A stretch of 64,000 bases of DNA from Escherichia coli (GTDB lineage Bacteria > Pseudomonadota > Gammaproteobacteria > Enterobacterales > Enterobacteriaceae): NCBI RefSeq assembly GCF_048403405.1, contig NZ_CP183129.1. One strand, 5' to 3'. Made by a program: the position numbers and the translations under genes. The notes beneath the pieces were generated by a model. It did not search any database and had not been told where the DNA came from. It saw only the letters and a program-made list of their open reading frames with translations. The first letter of the stretch is position 1. Every line of letters starts with the position of its first letter. This document shows positions 36,058 to 42,358 of the stretch, piece after piece.

Positions 36058-36906
36058 TTAATCCTGTTGTAGCAGGACAAGATTACGAAAGCGCGCTCCC
36101 CGCAAGGACTGACGCCAGATAGTTTCTGTCCATGGCTGCCCTTTCCATTCAAACGTGAAATCAATAAGTTCATCAGGGACACCGCAAACAATATGAAGAC
36201 GGATTTCTTCTCTGCCGTGACTCTTTTCACTCATTGCGAAACTGTCATGCTCTGGATTATTTAATTCTTTCAGTGGGAATTTTTCCTCAAAGGCTTTATT
36301 AAGCCGTCCCTGATTTCCTTTTACAGCGAATAAATAATCACCGCCCTGTTTTTGTATCTTCTCTGCGATATCTTTCTGGCAACCCATCGCATCAGTTGTG
36401 ATAATTTTTCCTTTAATATCCAACATGTTAAGAAGTTCAGGGATAGCTGTGATCTCATTGGATTTCTCATCCGTCCTGATCTGTCCGATGACCAGACTGT
36501 GCATTGTTGAGAACGCACTAATGACATGAATCGCTCCCCTGCGGCGACTCTTGTCATAAGAATGCCGGAGCGTTTTTCCATCAATTGCAATAACGTCTTT
36601 ATCATCTGAAGAATGGCAGTCACGCATCCAGTTAATAAAGCACTCGTGAAATTTTGCAGGACTGATACAGGATACAACTCTGGCAATGGTATCGTGAACA
36701 GGAATACCATTTTCAAAATCACCATATTGCTTCAAAAAATCGAGATGTGTTTCCCCAAAATCCTCTATATCTTCCCAGCCTTCTGCACCAGAAATAACGG
36801 CACAAATAGTCAACAGTAGAATATCCGACAATTTATGTTCCACTTTCCAGGCTTGTCTGTAATCGGGGATAATAGAAATATGTTCCATCAATTTTTTAAG
36901 TTCCAT
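36058..36906 (-). mobile_element. ybfD: H-repeat-associated (ISAs1-family) transposase gene, 3'-truncated remnant
   Basis: 282 aa ORF with N-terminus [51 protein letters not shown] typical of H-rpt proteins; homology ends after ...FTFEWKG, then an unrelated short tail (full-length proteins are about 378 aa as recalled). Confidence 0.8.
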
Positions 36907-37013: not shown

Positions 37014-37593
37014 TTAGTACAAAAAGTGTACTTCTGATGATCTTTCCCTGTCCTTGGCACCATCATTTTTTGACGCTTCAAAAATACTACTACAAGTGAG
37101 TTTAGAAAACTCTTTTCCAGATAATTCTCCAGGTTGTAATCCTCCGCCGCCAAAAATCCTACTCCCAGGATTTCCATACCTATTTAGAGCATATGAATAG
37201 CAATTATTTACGGCAAGATAATACGCATCTGAATTTAGTTCTCGATTGAATACTGGAGCAGGTTTATCAATTAAGCCCAGCGGATCAATAGAATAGGTTG
37301 GATGTATGGAAGCATATACATACTGATTCCACCCGCCTTCCAGCCCAATCGGTTCCTGAGTGATATACCGCCCCTGCAGCGGGTCATAATAGCGGTGGCG
37401 GTTGTAATACAGGCCGGACTCCTCATCATACTGCTGCCCCGGCAGACGGATAAGCTGCTGCAGGTGCTGCGGGTTCTCTTCAGTCAGCAGGTTGCCCCAT
37501 TCATCATATTCTGCGCACCATTCTGTTGCCCCGTCAGGGCTGATAAGCGTCAGCGGCAGGCCGCGATAGTCGCAGTGGTAGAGGTGGATTATT
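37014..37593 (-). pseudogene. orphan rhs core-end plus alternative C-terminal toxin (CT) fragment, no start codon
   Basis: Minus-strand translation gives ...[12 protein letters not shown]...[46 protein letters not shown] then a unique tail ending ...SSEVHFLY, stop at 37014-37016; 37340-37600 is a near-identical DNA repeat of 38690-38950 inside the main rhs gene. Confidence 0.75.
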
Positions 37594-37623
37594 CGCAGTG
37601 GTAGAGGTGGATTATTCGCAGTG
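37571..37623. repeat. 23-bp tandem direct repeat (2 copies plus a partial third) at the 5' edge of the orphan rhs fragment
   Basis: CGCAGTGGTAGAGGTGGATTATT at 37571-37593 and 37594-37616, then CGCAGTG. Confidence 0.9.
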
Positions 37624-37706
37624 ATCTATATGCCAACGTCATCTTATTTTTCATCTACTCCAACGAGTAGACAAGTTTTTTATTAAACCATTTATACCTT
37701 TTACGA

Positions 37707-38210
37707 TTAAATTTTCTTATGTAATAGAGGTGAATAATCTTCCCAAAAATCCATACAAGCTTTACTTGCATAAAAGAATCCAGCGTCTGATTCATAAGAC
37801 ATAAACTGTGCAATAATAGATAGTTGTATATCTGAAAAATTAAAAACAAAATTCAAAAAATCATCGTGATCCCGATACTCAGGACATAAATATTGTTGAA
37901 TAAAATCGGATTCAAAAACCCAAAAATCATTCTTATTAAACAACGAGGCATAAATATACAGAGGGATGTAATAGCAGAATACTTTCTCAGGGAGGAATGT
38001 AATTCCTAACTCTAAAGCATAAGAGTCATCCTTTATTTTAAAATTGTTGGCTATTTCATTCCATTGTTTCTTTTGGAAAAAATTATATACAATATCCAGT
38101 TCCTCCAGCCCTGTAATATCATTTGAAATATGAGGTAATGGCTGGCATGGGAAATGAATCATAAGTTCATCATAGACTGCACTCTCGTTAGAGAAAATTA
38201 TTTTTTTCAT
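37707..38210 (-). CDS. candidate Rhs immunity protein (RhsI-like), cognate to the main Rhs toxin tip
   Basis: 167 aa from [16 protein letters not shown]; its ATG overlaps the rhs stop (ATGA at 38207-38210); low-GC, no signal peptide; position directly 3' of the toxin gene. Confidence 0.6.
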
Positions 38211-41200
38211 TTTATTAAGCCACTGCAATCAGCTGCTGTTTTATATGCTTTATTCTCTTCTTCCATATGGGCCTTATCTCCACCACCAAAGCACTGATTA
38301 TTAATCTGCTTTCTGACCGAAGCGCACGCCAAATTTATCTCGTACCGTCTCAATATTTCTTTTCTCAGCATCTGAGGAGCGCAAGCTCTAGACTGGTTAC
38401 ATAATCTGTTTTTTTCATTTTGTAAGTCACTCAGGTTCTGGGGACTACAGTTACCACCAGGATTTACACCTGACTTATGTTCATCTGTTAATTTGTCGGC
38501 TTCTGGATTAACTTTACGGCCATATTGATCTCTGCGTTGTTGCCCACTTTGGATAACACCACCTGATGAAAATAAACCGCAACTCATCAGTGCTACAACA
38601 CTAAGAATTAACGGATTTAACCCTTGTGGGTCTATCTCTGAGATCGGATTTAACGGATACTGATAAAAATTCCATCCCCCCTTAAGCCCAATCGGATCCT
38701 GAGTGATATACCGCCCCTGCAGCGGGTCATAATAGCGGTGGCGGTTGTAATACAGGCCGGACTCCTCATCATACTGCTGACCCGGCAGGCGGATGAGCTG
38801 CTGCAGCTGATGCGGGTTCTCTTCATTCAGCAGGTTGCCCCATTCATCGTATTCTGCGTACCACGCTGTTGTCCCTTCCGTGCTGACAAGCGCCAGCGGC
38901 AGGCCGCGATGGTCGCAGTGGTACAGGTGGATTTTTCGCGCCGGCGTGTACACCGGGTCCATCTGGTTTTGCATCTGCTCCACCGTCAGGCCGCACGATG
39001 CCAGCCAGCGGCGGCTTTCCTCGCTCACCCGGTCAGTAAGGATTTCACTTTCCAGCCGGTCGAGCATCTGCACCAGCACCGGCGGGAACACCACTCTGCC
39101 ACCGTCTTCGCCGCCGGACTGCTGAAGGGCATCCGCCAGGCTGCGGCGCTGCGTTTTCGCCAGCTCACCGGTGGCGGTTTCAACTCTGATGAGTGGCGTG
39201 AAGCTCCCCGGCTGATAAACCGTCTGGATGCGGGTTCTGTCGTTCTGTATTGTGGTCAGCCGGTCGCCGTCCCAGCCGTACCAGGTCACTTCCGGTTTCC
39301 GTGACAGCGACATCCAGCCCGTCAGGTCCCGTTCACGCCGCCATACCCGTTTTGCCACCCTGCGGCCCAGCGGGTCGTAAAGATAGCGACTTTCGACCAG
39401 CGGCTCTGCATATTGTGTCCGCGTGTAGTGCACCAGCCGGTGCCGGCTGTCGTAATGATACCGGTGAGTCCGCTCATCATCCGTGCGGATAACCCCTTCC
39501 GGGATGAGGTCGGTTTTCTCTGTCAGCCTGCCGTGACGGTCATACCGGTAAAGATAGTGCGCGTCACGGGCGATACGGTTATCCGGCCACATGCTGAGGG
39601 TGCTGTCCGGGTGCAGCTCCGGGTCGGGCAGGCGGTTGCCTGCCGGGTCCGTGGCATACGGGATGCGGATATCCAGATTCGCTGCGGTGGTGTGGACGCC
39701 GGTCAGCCTGCCGGTGTCGCTGTAGCTGTAACTCCGGGTCTGGCGCGGGCTGCTGATGCGGATGAGTTCGCCGTTGTCGTTCCAGGTGTAATCGCGGTCA
39801 TACTGCAGGCTGTTCAGGTGCTGGCTCTGTAACTGCCCGGCAGAGGTGTAAGCGGTGGTGAGTTCATAACGGCCGAAGCTGCGCAGCGTTTCCCGGTGCA
39901 GGCGGTCGCGGGTGAAATCCACCAGCGGTGTGTCGCCGAGTTTCATGCCTGACAGCCAGCCGCTGCCGTAGGTCAGCCATTCCACGGCGGGCAGGCTGTC
40001 CGGTATACAGCGGTTCGCCAGTCCCTGCGCGTTGTACGCATGTCTGGTTTCATGCTGCCAGAGCAGTGCTTCCGTCTGCGGGTGATGCACCGTCTGGCGC
40101 TCACCGGTCAGGCGGCCTTTCTCATCATACCCGTAATGCACCGTCACCCGGTGGCCTTCGCTGAGATGGCTGATGCCTGTCAGCCAGCCGCGTTCGTCAT
40201 ACTGCCACTGCTCTGCAGGTTCACCCTTCACGGTGCGGTGAGTGAGGCGGTCTGCTTCGTCATAGTGCCAGTGGGTGACCAGCCCCTCATCCTCGCTGCG
40301 GATAAGTTTACCGGTCAGGTCGTGGTGATAACGCTGTGTGCGGCCGTCAAAGCCGGTTTCCTGTATCAGCCGGTCAAGTACATCGTAACGGAAGGTGGTG
40401 TGGCTGCCGTTTTCACTGGTCAGGCGGATGACCCGCCCGGCAGCATCGTATTCCATACTGCGCGTCAGACCGCCCTGCGTGGTACGAACGGGCTTTCCCC
40501 ACGCATCGTACTGTGTCCCGTTTCTGCTGCCGTCCGGGGCAATGACGGCGGTCAGGTCACCGGCGGCGTTGTATTCATACCGCGTTTCATGGCCCTGCGT
40601 GTCTTTCACCGCAATTAACTGTCCACGGCTGTCGTATGCGCGGTACTGACTCAGCCCTTCCTCGCGGTGCACCGCCGTCACCTGACCAAAACGGTCATGG
40701 TCATAACGGGTTACATAACCGGAACAGTCAGTGACGGTCAGCAACTGACCGTAACGGCTCCATGTCATGGTTTTCCGGCTGCCGGTGGCATCTTCCGTTG
40801 CGCAGGGTAAGTCACTGTGTGGATTATCATAACGGTAGCGGGTGATATCGCCGTTGTGTGCGGTTTCCTGAATCAGACGGCCGGATTCATCATATTTGCG
40901 GCGCAACTCCAGCCCGTCAGTCCCGGTGGCTGACGTTAACTGGTTGTGGTGGTTATAGTAAAATGCCGATGCCCTGCCATCCGGTGTGGTGATGCGCGTG
41001 ATGAGTCCCGTCACCACATCCGGGCTGTACTCAGTCGTCCGGCCTGCGGCATCCGTCTGTGCCTTAAGCCCGCCCACCGCGTCAAACTGACTCTGCGTGA
41101 CGCTGCCGTCCGCGTGTTCCTTTTTCACCACCCGCTTCAGCCCGCCTTCGCCCTGCGTGTGCAGCACTTCACGGCGGTCCAGACTGTCGGTGATGGTGAT

Positions 41201-42358
41201 GCGGTCTTTCTCATACTGATACGTGTAGCTTAAGCCTGCCGGGTTTAGCTGTTCTGTCACCCGCCCGTCGCTGTCGTAACGGTAACGGATATCCGGCCGG
41301 CCCGTGTGACGGTGCGCCACCATCCGGCCCCGGTATTTATCATCGTAAGTAAAGCTGCGCACCTGTGTATTGCTGCGGTCATACACCGCCGCCAGTTCGC
41401 CGCGTGGCGTCCAGCCATAGCGCACCAGCGGCGCGGCAGGTAAATTCTCCGGGTATTCCGGGTCGTGCGTCAGCCACACGGCAGACAGACGGATGCCGTT
41501 GTCCCGGCCATATTCGGTGTAACCCGGCAGGGTATCAGGAAAAACGGACGGTTCCGTCCCGCCGGAAATGGCCTGCTGCCGGGCTTCTTCTGCCCGCTGC
41601 GCCTGCGTGGTCAGTACCAGCCGGAAGTGACGCCCGGCACCATCCGTCACGCCGGTGATTTCGCCGCTGAATTCGCCGCCAGCCTCACGGTGAAACGTCT
41701 GTGTGCGCCCGAAGCGGTCCACCAGCCCGGTCAGTACCCGGTACGGCGGCAGCGGCGCGGGCAGCACCTCATCCGCCTCCGGCACCCGCTCACACCAGCC
41801 GAGTACCCACCACGGCCCCTGCGGACTGTTTGTCGCCAGATAACGATGCGGACTCAGGCGAAGCTCTTCCGGCAGCGCCTGCCAGAGTGCGGCCAGCCGG
41901 TGACCTTCATCCAGTTTCGCCACGCCGCCGCGCACCAGCCAGAGTGACTCGCTGCGGCTGTAACCGTCCTCACCGGGAAACAGGTGCTCAAAATACAGGC
42001 TTCTGCCGCCGTTATCACTGAGTGTCAGTGTGTTATCGCGCAGCTGTAAGCGGATATCCGCAGGCATTTTCCAGCCGGGGCCGAGGCTCCCCACCGGCGC
42101 GGGCGTTTTTGTCCGGTAACTGCTGTAGGTGCGGGAGAGGATGAACGGCAGCGGGCCGGGCAGGGCAAGGTCGGTTTCGCCGGGAAGGACCTTCGCACCG
42201 AGCAGCGGATTGACCGGATGGCCGGACGTCACCCCGCCGGGGCACACCGAACAGGCCACGCCGGTGGGGGCACCAATACGTACCCCGGCTGAACCCTGAA
42301 CAATGCTACCGCCATACTGCGTCATGTCGCCCTGACGCGCCGCCGGTTTTCCGCTCAT
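38207..42358 (-). CDS. rhsC: Rhs-family polymorphic toxin (YD-repeat protein with variable C-terminal toxin domain)
   Basis: 1383 aa; N-terminus [34 protein letters not shown]; many YD repeats; conserved core end ...[17 protein letters not shown]...DPQGL followed by a unique Cys-rich tail; symbol from synteny with ybfA-kdp. Confidence 0.85.

What the first reader, a model, noticed from the sequence alone, without database searches (positions are those of the whole stretch)
38207..38620. Rhs C-terminal toxin tip of unknown type, cysteine-rich with a hydrophobic N-terminal segment
Seen in sequence: after the conserved core end (...[17 protein letters not shown]...DPQGL) the last 136 or so residues ([20 protein letters not shown] ... 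[10 protein letters not shown] ... CFGGGDKAH ... AADCSGLIK) are unique and contain at least seven cysteines plus a short hydrophobic stretch. Established knowledge: Rhs proteins deliver variable C-terminal toxin domains that are released by autoproteolysis at the DPxGL motif. I do not recognise this tip as a known nuclease, deaminase or ADP-ribosyltransferase, so its activity is unassigned.
Basis: partly seen in the sequence, partly recalled or inferred. Interest (0 to 1): 0.6.

Follow-up and report, generated by a model that had tools for sequence, protein, structure and literature searches.

The report
Ntox16 toxin tip on E. coli Rhs
The cysteine-rich end of this E. coli Rhs protein is real, but it belongs to a toxin family catalogued in 2012 (Ntox16), sits next to its own antidote gene, and still has no experimentally known activity.

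Summary
The minus-strand ORF 38207..42358 is an intact 1383-aa Rhs protein. Its last 136 residues follow two DPxGL motifs, contain seven cysteines and start with an uncharged hydrophobic stretch.

The "unknown type / unique" reading does not hold. Tip residues 54-133 match Pfam Ntox16 (PF15523, E=7.7e-13). [quoted passage not shown] About 242 of 5426 complete E. coli genomes carry the same module.

Across 133 aligned family members, six cysteines, R102 and G-G-[DN]-x-x-H117 are invariant or nearly so. AlphaFold2 gives a confident four-helix domain for residues ~27-136. It has no significant match among solved structures.

The translationally coupled downstream ORF (37707..38210) is a DUF6714 protein with no signal peptide. 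DUF6714 genes follow Ntox16 genes in unrelated Rhs, eCIS and lipoprotein loci, so it is the cognate immunity.

The best reading is a cytoplasm-acting enzymatic toxin, possibly an RNase as predicted in 2012, released by Rhs autoproteolysis. Its activity, the role of the cysteines and the role of the hydrophobic segment remain inferred. This is an ordinary member of a known but uncharacterised family.

The parts
38207..42358 (-). Complete Rhs gene (1383 aa plus stop) at the rhsC-type locus between ybfA/kdp and ybgA/phrB
   Evidence: ORF list. NCBIfam NF041261 RHS_core scores 2632 bits against a cutoff of 2000, covering residues 1-1247. RefSeq annotates it as RHS element core protein WP_230139585.1.
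38618..38698 (-). C-terminal autoproteolysis signature: DPIGL, 17 residues, DPQGL (residues 1221-1247). Cleavage is expected after L1247.
   Evidence: Read directly from the translation. [quoted passage not shown] The core HMM ends at 1247.
38210..38617 (-). The 136-aa variable tip (protein residues 1248-1383)
38552..38614 (-). Uncharged hydrophobic segment (tip residues 2-22, [21 protein letters not shown]), followed by a basic flank (RRDQYGRK)
   Evidence: Kyte-Doolittle 17-aa maximum ~2.0. pLDDT 55-60, so it is not packed on the domain. The flanks carry 0 K/R on the N side and 4 K/R on the C side.
38210..38539 (-). Folded toxin domain in the AlphaFold2 model (tip residues ~27-136): a short N-terminal motif [12 protein letters not shown], then four helices (38-49, 59-73, 85-109, 115-135)
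   Evidence: Mean pLDDT 90.5, and >=96 from residue ~30 onward. The N-terminal D..G....P motif is conserved in more than half of the family (consensus).
38219..38458 (-). Pfam Ntox16 (PF15523) match, tip residues 54-133
   Evidence: E=7.7e-13, model positions 2-84 of 85
38312..38314 (-). Codon of invariant Arg (tip R102, protein R1349), a candidate catalytic or substrate-binding residue
   Evidence: 1.00 conserved in 133 members. Invariant in alignment A1.
38267..38278 (-). D-K-A-H, the family [DNE]xxH motif (tip D114-H117), preceded by invariant G112-G113 at the helix 3/4 turn
   Evidence: GAT AAG GCC CAT read. H117 is 1.00 conserved and D/N114 is 1.00.
37707..38210 (-). Cognate immunity gene (167 aa, DUF6714). 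Its ATG overlaps the rhs TGA as ATGA. It has no signal peptide and is predicted all-alpha.
   Evidence: RefSeq CDS WP_000720081.1. Pfam DUF6714 E=3.9e-5, with 14 of 19 aligned relatives matching. AF2 pLDDT 87. DUF6714 genes lie immediately downstream of Ntox16 genes in L002, L004, L005, L008 and L012.

Best explanation
The region is the C-terminal toxin module of an Rhs polymorphic toxin, and the toxin belongs to the Ntox16 family.

Shown here:
- The Rhs core is intact.
- It ends in the double DPxGL aspartyl-autoprotease signature.
- The 136-aa tip matches Ntox16.
- The next gene, translationally coupled by an ATGA overlap, is a DUF6714 protein. This family recurs directly downstream of Ntox16 genes in unrelated loci.

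Inferred mechanism:
- The tip is held inside the Rhs beta-cage in the producer and is cut off after L1247.
- It is delivered into a neighbouring cell, most likely by a T6SS encoded elsewhere in the genome.
- Its folded part (residues ~27-136) is a four-helix bundle stapled or metal-loaded through six invariant cysteines, and it acts as an enzyme in the target cytoplasm.
- The active centre is built from invariant R102 on helix 3 and the G-G-D114-x-x-H117 turn at the start of helix 4.
- The most likely substrate class is nucleic acid. Zhang et al. 2012 listed Ntox16 among predicted metal-independent RNases.
- The cytoplasmic DUF6714 protein neutralises the toxin by binding it, in the producer and in sibling cells.
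- The uncharged hydrophobic segment between the cleavage site and the domain is an optional accessory. It probably inserts into the inner membrane N-out/C-in, because its basic flank lies on the toxin side, and so helps carry the toxin from periplasm to cytoplasm.

My confidence differs by claim. Identity and architecture: ~0.9. Cytoplasmic site of action: ~0.7. Enzymatic nuclease: ~0.45, and RNase specifically ~0.3. Translocation role of the hydrophobic segment: ~0.35.
For: - Pfam Ntox16 match at E=7.7e-13.
- Zhang 2012 defines the family as alpha-helical with R and [DNE]xxH, linked to RHS/T6SS/PVC. Its Table 2 places it under 'Predicted metal-independent RNase toxins'.
- The family has 274 50%-identity clusters at E<=1e-3, and the domain is almost always at the extreme C-terminus.
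- Six Cys, R102, G112, G113, D/N114 and H117 are >=0.99 conserved in 133 members.
- The AF2 model has pLDDT 90.5 with four helices.
- RHS_core scores above its curated cutoff and ends at DPQGL. The double DPxGL motif with 17-residue spacing matches the experimentally mapped cleavage site in P. laumondii Rhs1 (PMC8636562).
- GC steps down 0.62 -> 0.40 -> 0.30.
- Immunity: ATGA overlap and a DUF6714 match. A DUF6714 gene sits immediately 3' of the Ntox16 gene in five unrelated loci, and alignable homologues sit there in two more.
- Close toxin and immunity relatives appear to share contigs: the same longest-contig length is reported for each pair in Lelliottia and Enterobacter quasimori.
- None of about 30 DUF6714 proteins inspected has a signal peptide, including the partner of a lipoprotein-signal Ntox16.
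- A hydrophobic stretch follows the DPxGL motif in 22 of 38 Rhs-linked members, against 18 of 59 others. Flanking K/R counts are 60 on the C side against 34 on the N side.
Against: - There are no experimental data for any Ntox16 member in the searchable literature. The RNase idea rests only on a conserved R/D/H pattern.
- The fold has no significant relative among solved structures that could support any chemistry.
- Six invariant cysteines fit a cytoplasmic enzyme awkwardly. About two dozen family members carry Sec or lipoprotein signal peptides. That suggests a disulfide-bonded extracytoplasmic fold.
- The route of delivery is not shown here. The PAAR match is not significant (E=0.22), and no vgrG, hcp or tss gene lies within 9 kb.
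- The hydrophobic segment is absent from several Rhs-linked members, so it cannot be essential.
- I could not obtain model coordinates, so Cys-Cys and R/D/H geometry were not checked.
Confidence: 0.75

Rival explanations
1. Periplasm-acting toxin. The six invariant cysteines form three disulfides once the tip reaches the oxidising periplasm of the target, possibly with the help of the target's DsbA. The domain then attacks an envelope component, tethered to the inner membrane by the hydrophobic segment.
For: Six invariant Cys sit in a ~105-aa helical domain. About two dozen of 147 family representatives begin with Sec or lipoprotein signal peptides, some followed directly by the domain, e.g. 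P0159 and P0112. There is precedent that T6SS effectors can need DsbA in the target cell (PMC5792426; title and abstract only).
Against: Every DUF6714 immunity protein inspected lacks a signal peptide or TM segment. That includes the partner of the lipoprotein-signal toxin P0112. Immunity to periplasm-acting effectors is normally periplasmic (established knowledge). eCIS/PVC-linked members would be injected straight into the cytoplasm. The basic flank lies on the toxin side of the hydrophobic segment, which favours a C-in topology.
Confidence: 0.1
2. Membrane-disrupting toxin. The hydrophobic N-terminal segment is the business end and depolarises or permeabilises the inner membrane, as the Rhs toxin Tse5-CT does.
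For: The 21-residue uncharged stretch follows the cleavage site directly. Relatives often carry Gly/Ala/Val-rich stretches at the same place. Pore-forming Rhs tips exist (PMC9637101 and PMC10684867, listed).
Against: The segment varies in sequence between close relatives and is missing in 16 of 38 Rhs-linked members. All family-wide invariants lie in the soluble helical domain and are polar or Cys. There is a single, only moderately hydrophobic stretch. The immunity protein is soluble.
Confidence: 0.05
3. Non-catalytic inhibitor. The small helical bundle binds and blocks an essential cytoplasmic target stoichiometrically rather than acting as an enzyme.
Against: A strictly invariant R, a D/N and an H over 133 diverse members, next to a GG turn, is a pattern typical of catalytic centres. 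Polymorphic toxins delivered a few molecules at a time are usually enzymes (established knowledge).
Confidence: 0.1

Closest known systems
Ntox16 (Pfam PF15523; Zhang, de Souza, Anantharaman, Iyer & Aravind 2012, PMC3482391)
   Same: Near full-length HMM match. All-alpha fold. Conserved R and [DNE]xxH (here R102 and DKAH). C-terminal position on an RHS-repeat protein. The family also occurs in PVC/eCIS and Sec-exported contexts.
   Different: Nothing excludes membership. This work adds four points to the 2012 table entry. Six invariant cysteines are a family hallmark. The folded unit extends ~25 residues N-terminal of the Pfam model. DUF6714 is the recurrent immunity partner, where the 2012 table lists none. 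A hydrophobic pre-toxin segment is frequent.
Classical E. coli Rhs elements (RhsA-E; NCBIfam NF041261 RHS element core protein) and T6SS Rhs effectors such as P. laumondii Rhs1 (PMC8636562)
   Same: GC-rich conserved core, double DPxGL motif with 17-residue spacing, AT-rich variable tip plus immunity gene, and a downstream orphan tip with an ISAs1 (H-repeat) element.
   Different: The tip family differs, for example from Tre23 ART in P. laumondii. No EagR, VgrG or prePAAR-TMD context is visible here, and the PAAR match is not significant.
Ntox15/Tde-type T6SS toxins (mostly alpha, HxxD motif), listed in the same block of Zhang 2012 Table 2
   Same: A small, mostly helical toxin domain with a short D/H motif and a cytoplasmic immunity protein. 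From my own knowledge, Ntox15 members (Agrobacterium Tde1/2) were later shown to be DNases.
   Different: The motif order is reversed ([DN]xxH rather than HxxD). Ntox16 has six invariant cysteines. No sequence or Foldseek link to any other family was found. The resemblance is by analogy only and was not tested.
Tse5-CT, the pore-forming Rhs tip of P. aeruginosa (PMC9637101, PMC10684867)
   Same: An Rhs-encapsulated tip that contains hydrophobic sequence.
   Different: Here the hydrophobic stretch is single, variable and dispensable across the family. The conserved part is a polar, Cys-rich soluble domain with a soluble immunity protein.

Membership tests
Ntox16 (PF15523) | Significant match to the Pfam profile over most of its length | tested here: met
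   E=7.7e-13, 48.9 bits, model positions 2-84 of 85, tip residues 54-133
Ntox16 (PF15523) | Conserved Arg and [DNE]xxH motif (Zhang 2012 Table 2) | tested here: met
   R102 and D114-K-A-H117 are present. Both are invariant in 133 members.
Ntox16 (PF15523) | Alpha-helical domain | tested here: met
   The AF2 model has four helices and pLDDT >=96 over residues 30-136
Ntox16 (PF15523) | C-terminal toxin position in a polymorphic toxin (RHS, PVC or Sec context) | tested here: met
   It forms the last 136 aa of an RHS core protein. The domain is C-terminal in nearly all relatives.
Ntox16 (PF15523) | Toxic on expression and neutralised by the adjacent gene product | not testable with these tools
   Needs an expression and rescue assay. 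No published test was found.
Ntox16 (PF15523) | Metal-independent RNase activity (the 2012 prediction, not a definition) | not testable with these tools
   This is only a computational placement in Zhang 2012 Table 2
Rhs polymorphic toxin (RHS element core protein, NF041261) | Core profile above the curated cutoff | tested here: met
   2632.5 bits against a cutoff of 2000, residues 1-1247
Rhs polymorphic toxin (RHS element core protein, NF041261) | Two DPxGL motifs 17 residues apart that mark the C-terminal autocleavage site | tested here: met
   DPIGL-(17 aa)-DPQGL read. The criterion comes from PMC8636562. Cleavage itself was not tested.
Rhs polymorphic toxin (RHS element core protein, NF041261) | Compositional break at the core/tip junction, and an immunity gene immediately downstream | tested here: met
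   GC 0.62 -> 0.40 -> 0.30. ATGA-overlapping 167-aa ORF.
Rhs polymorphic toxin (RHS element core protein, NF041261) | PAAR domain or T6SS linkage (delivery route) | tested here: inconclusive
   PAAR_motif E=0.22, covering residues 2-20 only. DUF6531 E=2.4e-18. No vgrG, hcp or tss gene lies within +/-9 kb. The rest of the genome was not examined.
DUF6714 (PF20461), proposed as Ntox16 immunity | Profile match of the downstream ORF | tested here: met
   E=3.9e-5 for this protein. 14 of 19 aligned relatives match at E<=1e-3, best 4.7e-18.
DUF6714 (PF20461), proposed as Ntox16 immunity | Recurrent adjacency to the toxin across unrelated loci | tested here: met
   A DUF6714 gene lies directly 3' of the Ntox16 gene in L002, L004, L005, L008 and L012. 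Alignable homologues lie there in L003 and L006. The exceptions are L009 (a 68-aa ORF) and L013 (contig end).
HEPN-type RNases (considered) | Rx4-6H motif in a helical bundle (recalled from memory) | tested here: not met
Pore-forming Rhs tips (Tse5-like; considered) | Conserved hydrophobic or amphipathic helices as the toxic unit | tested here: not met
   The hydrophobic stretch is variable and absent in 16 of 38 Rhs-linked members. The invariants lie in the polar domain.

The most novel reading that the evidence does not exclude
Ntox16 could be a structurally unprecedented enzyme. It would be a ~110-aa four-helix bundle whose six invariant cysteines form three disulfides or hold a metal or cluster, with an R / GG-D-x-x-H centre and an activity different from the RNase guessed in 2012. 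DUF6714 would be its dedicated, previously unassigned immunity family. The hydrophobic pre-toxin segment common in Rhs-linked members would be a self-contained inner-membrane translocation helix placed on the toxin itself, rather than on the PAAR end.
Probability: 0.2. Interest if true: 0.6.

Novelty: already known. Interest (0 to 1): 0.3.

Why it matters
As a genome feature this is ordinary. It is a standard Rhs toxin/immunity cassette whose tip family was catalogued in 2012, and identical proteins already carry that family label.

It keeps some value as an experimental target. Ntox16 is widespread, with 274 clusters at 50% identity across proteobacteria, cyanobacteria, myxobacteria, Akkermansia and Neisseria. 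It has no solved structure, no structural relatives and no tested activity. This E. coli copy comes with a clean, tightly coupled immunity gene.

Two by-products of this check may help whoever takes it up. First, DUF6714 is the family's recurrent cytoplasmic immunity partner, where the 2012 table lists none. Second, six cysteines are as invariant as the published R/[DNE]xxH motif. That raises a testable question: how does a cysteine-stapled domain work in a reducing cytoplasm?

Tried and rejected
- **Family libraries.** NCBIfam, PADLOC and PHROGs scans of tip and immunity gave nothing usable. The only result was phrog_28180 at E=0.006, of unknown function.
- **PDB by sequence.** Single-sequence and profile searches found nothing for the tip. 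The IpaB hits at E~0.4 are noise, and the immunity search gave nothing meaningful.
- **Cryptic lipobox.** I considered 'ALMSC' in the hydrophobic segment as a lipoprotein lipobox. I rejected it because close relatives replace the segment with unrelated hydrophobic sequence lacking the Cys.
- **Disulfide or metal geometry.** I tried to read it from the AF2 model, but coordinates are not exposed to the scripting environment.
- **Plasmid search.** It found only three distant hits, in Acetobacter and Ralstonia megaplasmids. There is no sign of plasmid carriage in E. coli.
- **Orphan tip.** A Pfam scan of the downstream orphan tip found only the RHS core end.
- **Literature.** Searches for Ntox16, PF15523, 'Novel toxin 16' and DUF6714 found only the 2012 catalogue and an incidental mention in an Akkermansia gene list.
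Full report
**Where we are.** The window is E. coli chromosome. The stretch 37600-38700 is 100% identical to strain 4621 (NZ_CP103479) and many other complete genomes. The RefSeq annotation around it reads kdpFABCD, ybfA, RHS element core protein, hypothetical protein, partial RHS fragment, partial ISAs1 transposase (ybfD), ybgA, phrB, dtpD, ybgI. This is the classical rhsC-type position.

**Observation check.**
- The minus-strand ORF 38207..42358 encodes 1383 aa.
- NCBIfam's RHS_core equivalog scores 2632 bits against a cutoff of 2000. It aligns to residues 1-1247 and ends exactly at the L of DPQGL.
- The end of the core reads DPIGL, 17 residues, DPQGL. [quoted passage not shown] The catalytic Asp lies in the second motif (PMC8636562).
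- The remaining 136 residues (38210..38617) contain seven cysteines and start with 27 uncharged residues, of which about 21 are hydrophobic.
- GC drops from about 0.62 in the core to about 0.40 in the tip and about 0.30 in the next ORF.

**What the tip is.**
- Pfam places tip residues 54-133 in Ntox16 (PF15523) at E=7.7e-13, over positions 2-84 of the 85-position model.
- Ntox16 was defined by Zhang et al. 2012 as an alpha-helical toxin domain with a conserved R and a [DNE]xxH motif. It is found in beta-, gamma- and delta-proteobacteria, cyanobacteria and verrucomicrobia. It is exported by T2SS, T6SS or PVC, is associated with RHS repeats and the PVC metallopeptidase, and has no immunity family assigned (PMC3482391).
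- Its table row lies in the block headed 'Predicted metal-independent RNase toxins'.
- The tip carries R102 and D114-K-A-H117.
- About 242 of 5426 complete E. coli genomes carry the same tip plus downstream ORF. Close relatives occur in Shigella, Citrobacter, Salmonella, Enterobacter, Lelliottia and Rahnella.
- So the tip is neither unique nor uncatalogued.

**Family anatomy.**
- An exhaustive phmmer search of 1.84 billion cluster representatives found 274 proteins at E<=1e-3. The domain sits at or within a few residues of the C-terminus in nearly all of them.
- I aligned 133 members. C57, C79, C98 and C131 are 1.00 conserved, and C73 and C109 are 0.99. R102 and H117 are 1.00, G112 and G113 are 0.98-0.99, and position 114 is D (0.86) or N (0.14).
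- G55, L65, Q66, R77, N95, A101, I105, N106 and F/Y110 are also strongly conserved (confirmed in alignment A1).
- The seventh cysteine (C13) lies in the hydrophobic segment. That segment is replaced by unrelated hydrophobic sequence in close relatives and is absent from many members.
- A short motif 20-25 residues before the first conserved Cys (D-x-x-G-x-K-V-x-P-x-A; here [12 protein letters not shown]) is conserved in more than half of the family.

**Structure.**
- AlphaFold2 with the 80-sequence alignment gives mean pLDDT 90.5. Values are >=96 from about residue 30 to 136, with helices at 38-49, 59-73, 85-109 and 115-135.
- Residues 1-25, the hydrophobic segment, score 55-60. The folded unit is therefore about 110 aa and starts before the Pfam boundary.
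- The conserved residues of helix 3 (N95, C98/A99, R102, I105/N106, C109) and helix 4 (H117, 120/121, A124, 127/128, C131) follow an i, i+3/4, i+7 spacing. They therefore line one face of each helix. This is my own reading.
- Foldseek against PDB gave no hit at E<=1e-3.
- All listed AFDB50 hits (65 hits reached E<=1e-3) are Ntox16, RHS or DUF4157 proteins.
- Sequence and profile searches of PDB found nothing.
- The fold therefore offers no transferable chemistry.

**The downstream ORF.**
- RefSeq and the sequence agree on a 167-aa ORF at 37707..38210. Its ATG overlaps the rhs TGA as ATGA.
- It matches Pfam DUF6714 weakly (E=3.9e-5). 14 of 19 aligned relatives match at E<=1e-3, with a best value of 4.7e-18.
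- I looked up nine diverse Ntox16 genes on their contigs.
  - A DUF6714 gene lies immediately 3' in five: an Rhs gene in L002, Rhs in L004, Rhs in L005, an eCIS-context gene in L008, and a lipoprotein-signal Ntox16 in L012.
  - In two more (L003, L006) the 3' neighbour has no Pfam hit on record, but it has the same size and aligns over the family's F-x-[FY]-Y-[LIV]-P and F-W motifs.
  - One locus has a 68-aa ORF instead (L009), and one contig ends (L013).
- Close relatives of toxin and immunity also report identical longest-contig lengths in Lelliottia and Enterobacter quasimori, which suggests they share a contig.
- None of the roughly 30 DUF6714 proteins I read has a signal peptide or a hydrophobic N-terminus.
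- The AF2 model of the E. coli protein is all-alpha with pLDDT 87.
- DUF6714 is thus the recurrent, cytoplasmic immunity partner of Ntox16. The 2012 catalogue lists no partner.

**The hydrophobic segment.**
- 38 family members have a recognisable DPxG[LWMIVF] motif upstream. In 22 of them a 17-aa window with Kyte-Doolittle >=1.6 lies between the motif and the first conserved Cys. The figure is 18 of 59 among members without such a motif.
- Several Rhs-linked members have almost no linker.
- Close relatives of the E. coli tip carry an unrelated hydrophobic sequence at the same place.
- Over 47 such segments, the eight residues on the toxin side hold 60 K/R against 34 on the N side. For this tip the counts are 4 against 0.
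- By the positive-inside rule (established knowledge), this fits an N-out/C-in orientation, which would put the toxin domain in the cytoplasm.
- The segment is therefore a frequent but dispensable accessory, not part of the conserved toxin.

**Mechanism.**
- Shown: the tip's identity as Ntox16, the Rhs core and cleavage signature, the immunity pairing, and the invariant residues.
- Inferred from established Rhs biology (PMC8636562): encapsulation, autocleavage after L1247, and delivery.
- The cytoplasmic site of action is inferred from the uniformly signal-less immunity family and from eCIS-linked members.
- Enzymatic action through R102 and the GG-D-x-x-H turn is inferred from invariance.
- Nucleic acid as the substrate is only the 2012 computational prediction. 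It gains some plausibility from analogy with other small helical D/H-motif toxins.
- The main tension is the six invariant cysteines, together with about two dozen family members that begin with Sec or lipoprotein signals. This suggests a disulfide-bonded fold that can exist outside the cytoplasm.
- I keep a periplasm-acting model as a rival at about 0.1. A DsbA requirement in target cells has precedent for other T6SS effectors (PMC5792426).
- A membrane-disrupting model and a non-catalytic binder model are less likely, for the reasons given under the rival explanations.

**Delivery route.** The N-terminus has DUF6531 (E=2.4e-18) but only an insignificant PAAR fragment (E=0.22). No T6SS gene lies within 9 kb. 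T6SS delivery is therefore assumed from the family, not shown.

**Literature.** Full-text searches for Ntox16, PF15523, 'Novel toxin 16', DUF6714 and PF20461 returned only the 2012 catalogue and an incidental gene-list mention in Akkermansia. A 2025 survey of Rhs tips in plant pathogens does not mention the family in its main text. I found no experimental characterisation. The library does not hold most subscription-journal papers, so one could exist.

**Verdict.** The feature is real and correctly delimited. The 'unknown type' claim fails because it is an annotated member of a catalogued family, while 'activity unassigned' stands. I rate it already known as a kind and modest in interest (0.3). 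It has some residual value as a clean E. coli entry point to an uncharacterised, structurally isolated toxin family and its newly linked immunity family.

Noticed in passing
window 37014-37601 (-): An orphan Rhs C-terminal fragment lies directly after the immunity gene. It has the core end with its own DPLGL, then a different tip ([44 protein letters not shown]...) that stops after about 85 aa next to the ISAs1 element. RefSeq marks it as a pseudogene missing its N-terminus. Pfam recognises only the RHS core end, so the tip family is unassigned.
   Followed up: partly
window 36058-36906 (-): A 282-aa ISAs1-family (H-repeat, ybfD-like) transposase ORF sits at the end of the rhs element. RefSeq annotates it as a partial pseudogene. 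It probably truncated the orphan tip and removed that tip's immunity gene.
   Followed up: no
P0005, P0006 (Citrobacter rodentium, Enterobacter cloacae): Close relatives of the tip are called as stand-alone 128-aa ORFs. They start at the Met inside the hydrophobic segment (MSCGLLSS..., which corresponds to M11 of this tip). These may be orphan toxin modules or a possible internal start. A Salmonella study listed (PMC7043789) reports that orphan Rhs toxins can act as toxin-antitoxin modules.
   Followed up: no
L009 3001-3566 (soil metagenome contig): This is a minimal Ntox16 protein of 118 aa: a Sec signal peptide followed directly by the domain. Its 3' neighbour is a basic 68-aa ORF with no Pfam hit instead of a DUF6714 gene. 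It may use a different immunity solution, or it may be aimed at non-kin.
   Followed up: partly
L008 2254-5707: An Ntox16 gene with a DUF6714 partner sits among genes hitting PF13699 (eCIS_core), PAAR and Tail_P2_I. This confirms the PVC/eCIS-linked branch of the family noted in 2012. These members lack the hydrophobic pre-toxin segment.
   Followed up: partly
L005 1-5400: A long genomic contig carries an array of Rhs C-terminal modules in tandem: a Tox-WTIP tip followed by a Prok-JAB gene, an unassigned tip, then Ntox16 with DUF6714. This is a typical orphan-cassette array and a possible source of further toxin/immunity pairs.
   Followed up: no
P0042, P0048, P0053, P0060, P0061, P0099, P0116: One subgroup of Rhs-like Ntox16 proteins has two hydrophobic or amphipathic stretches before the domain. 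They also share a conserved YDKAGLLVSP motif, a variant of the [12 protein letters not shown] motif of the E. coli tip.
   Followed up: no
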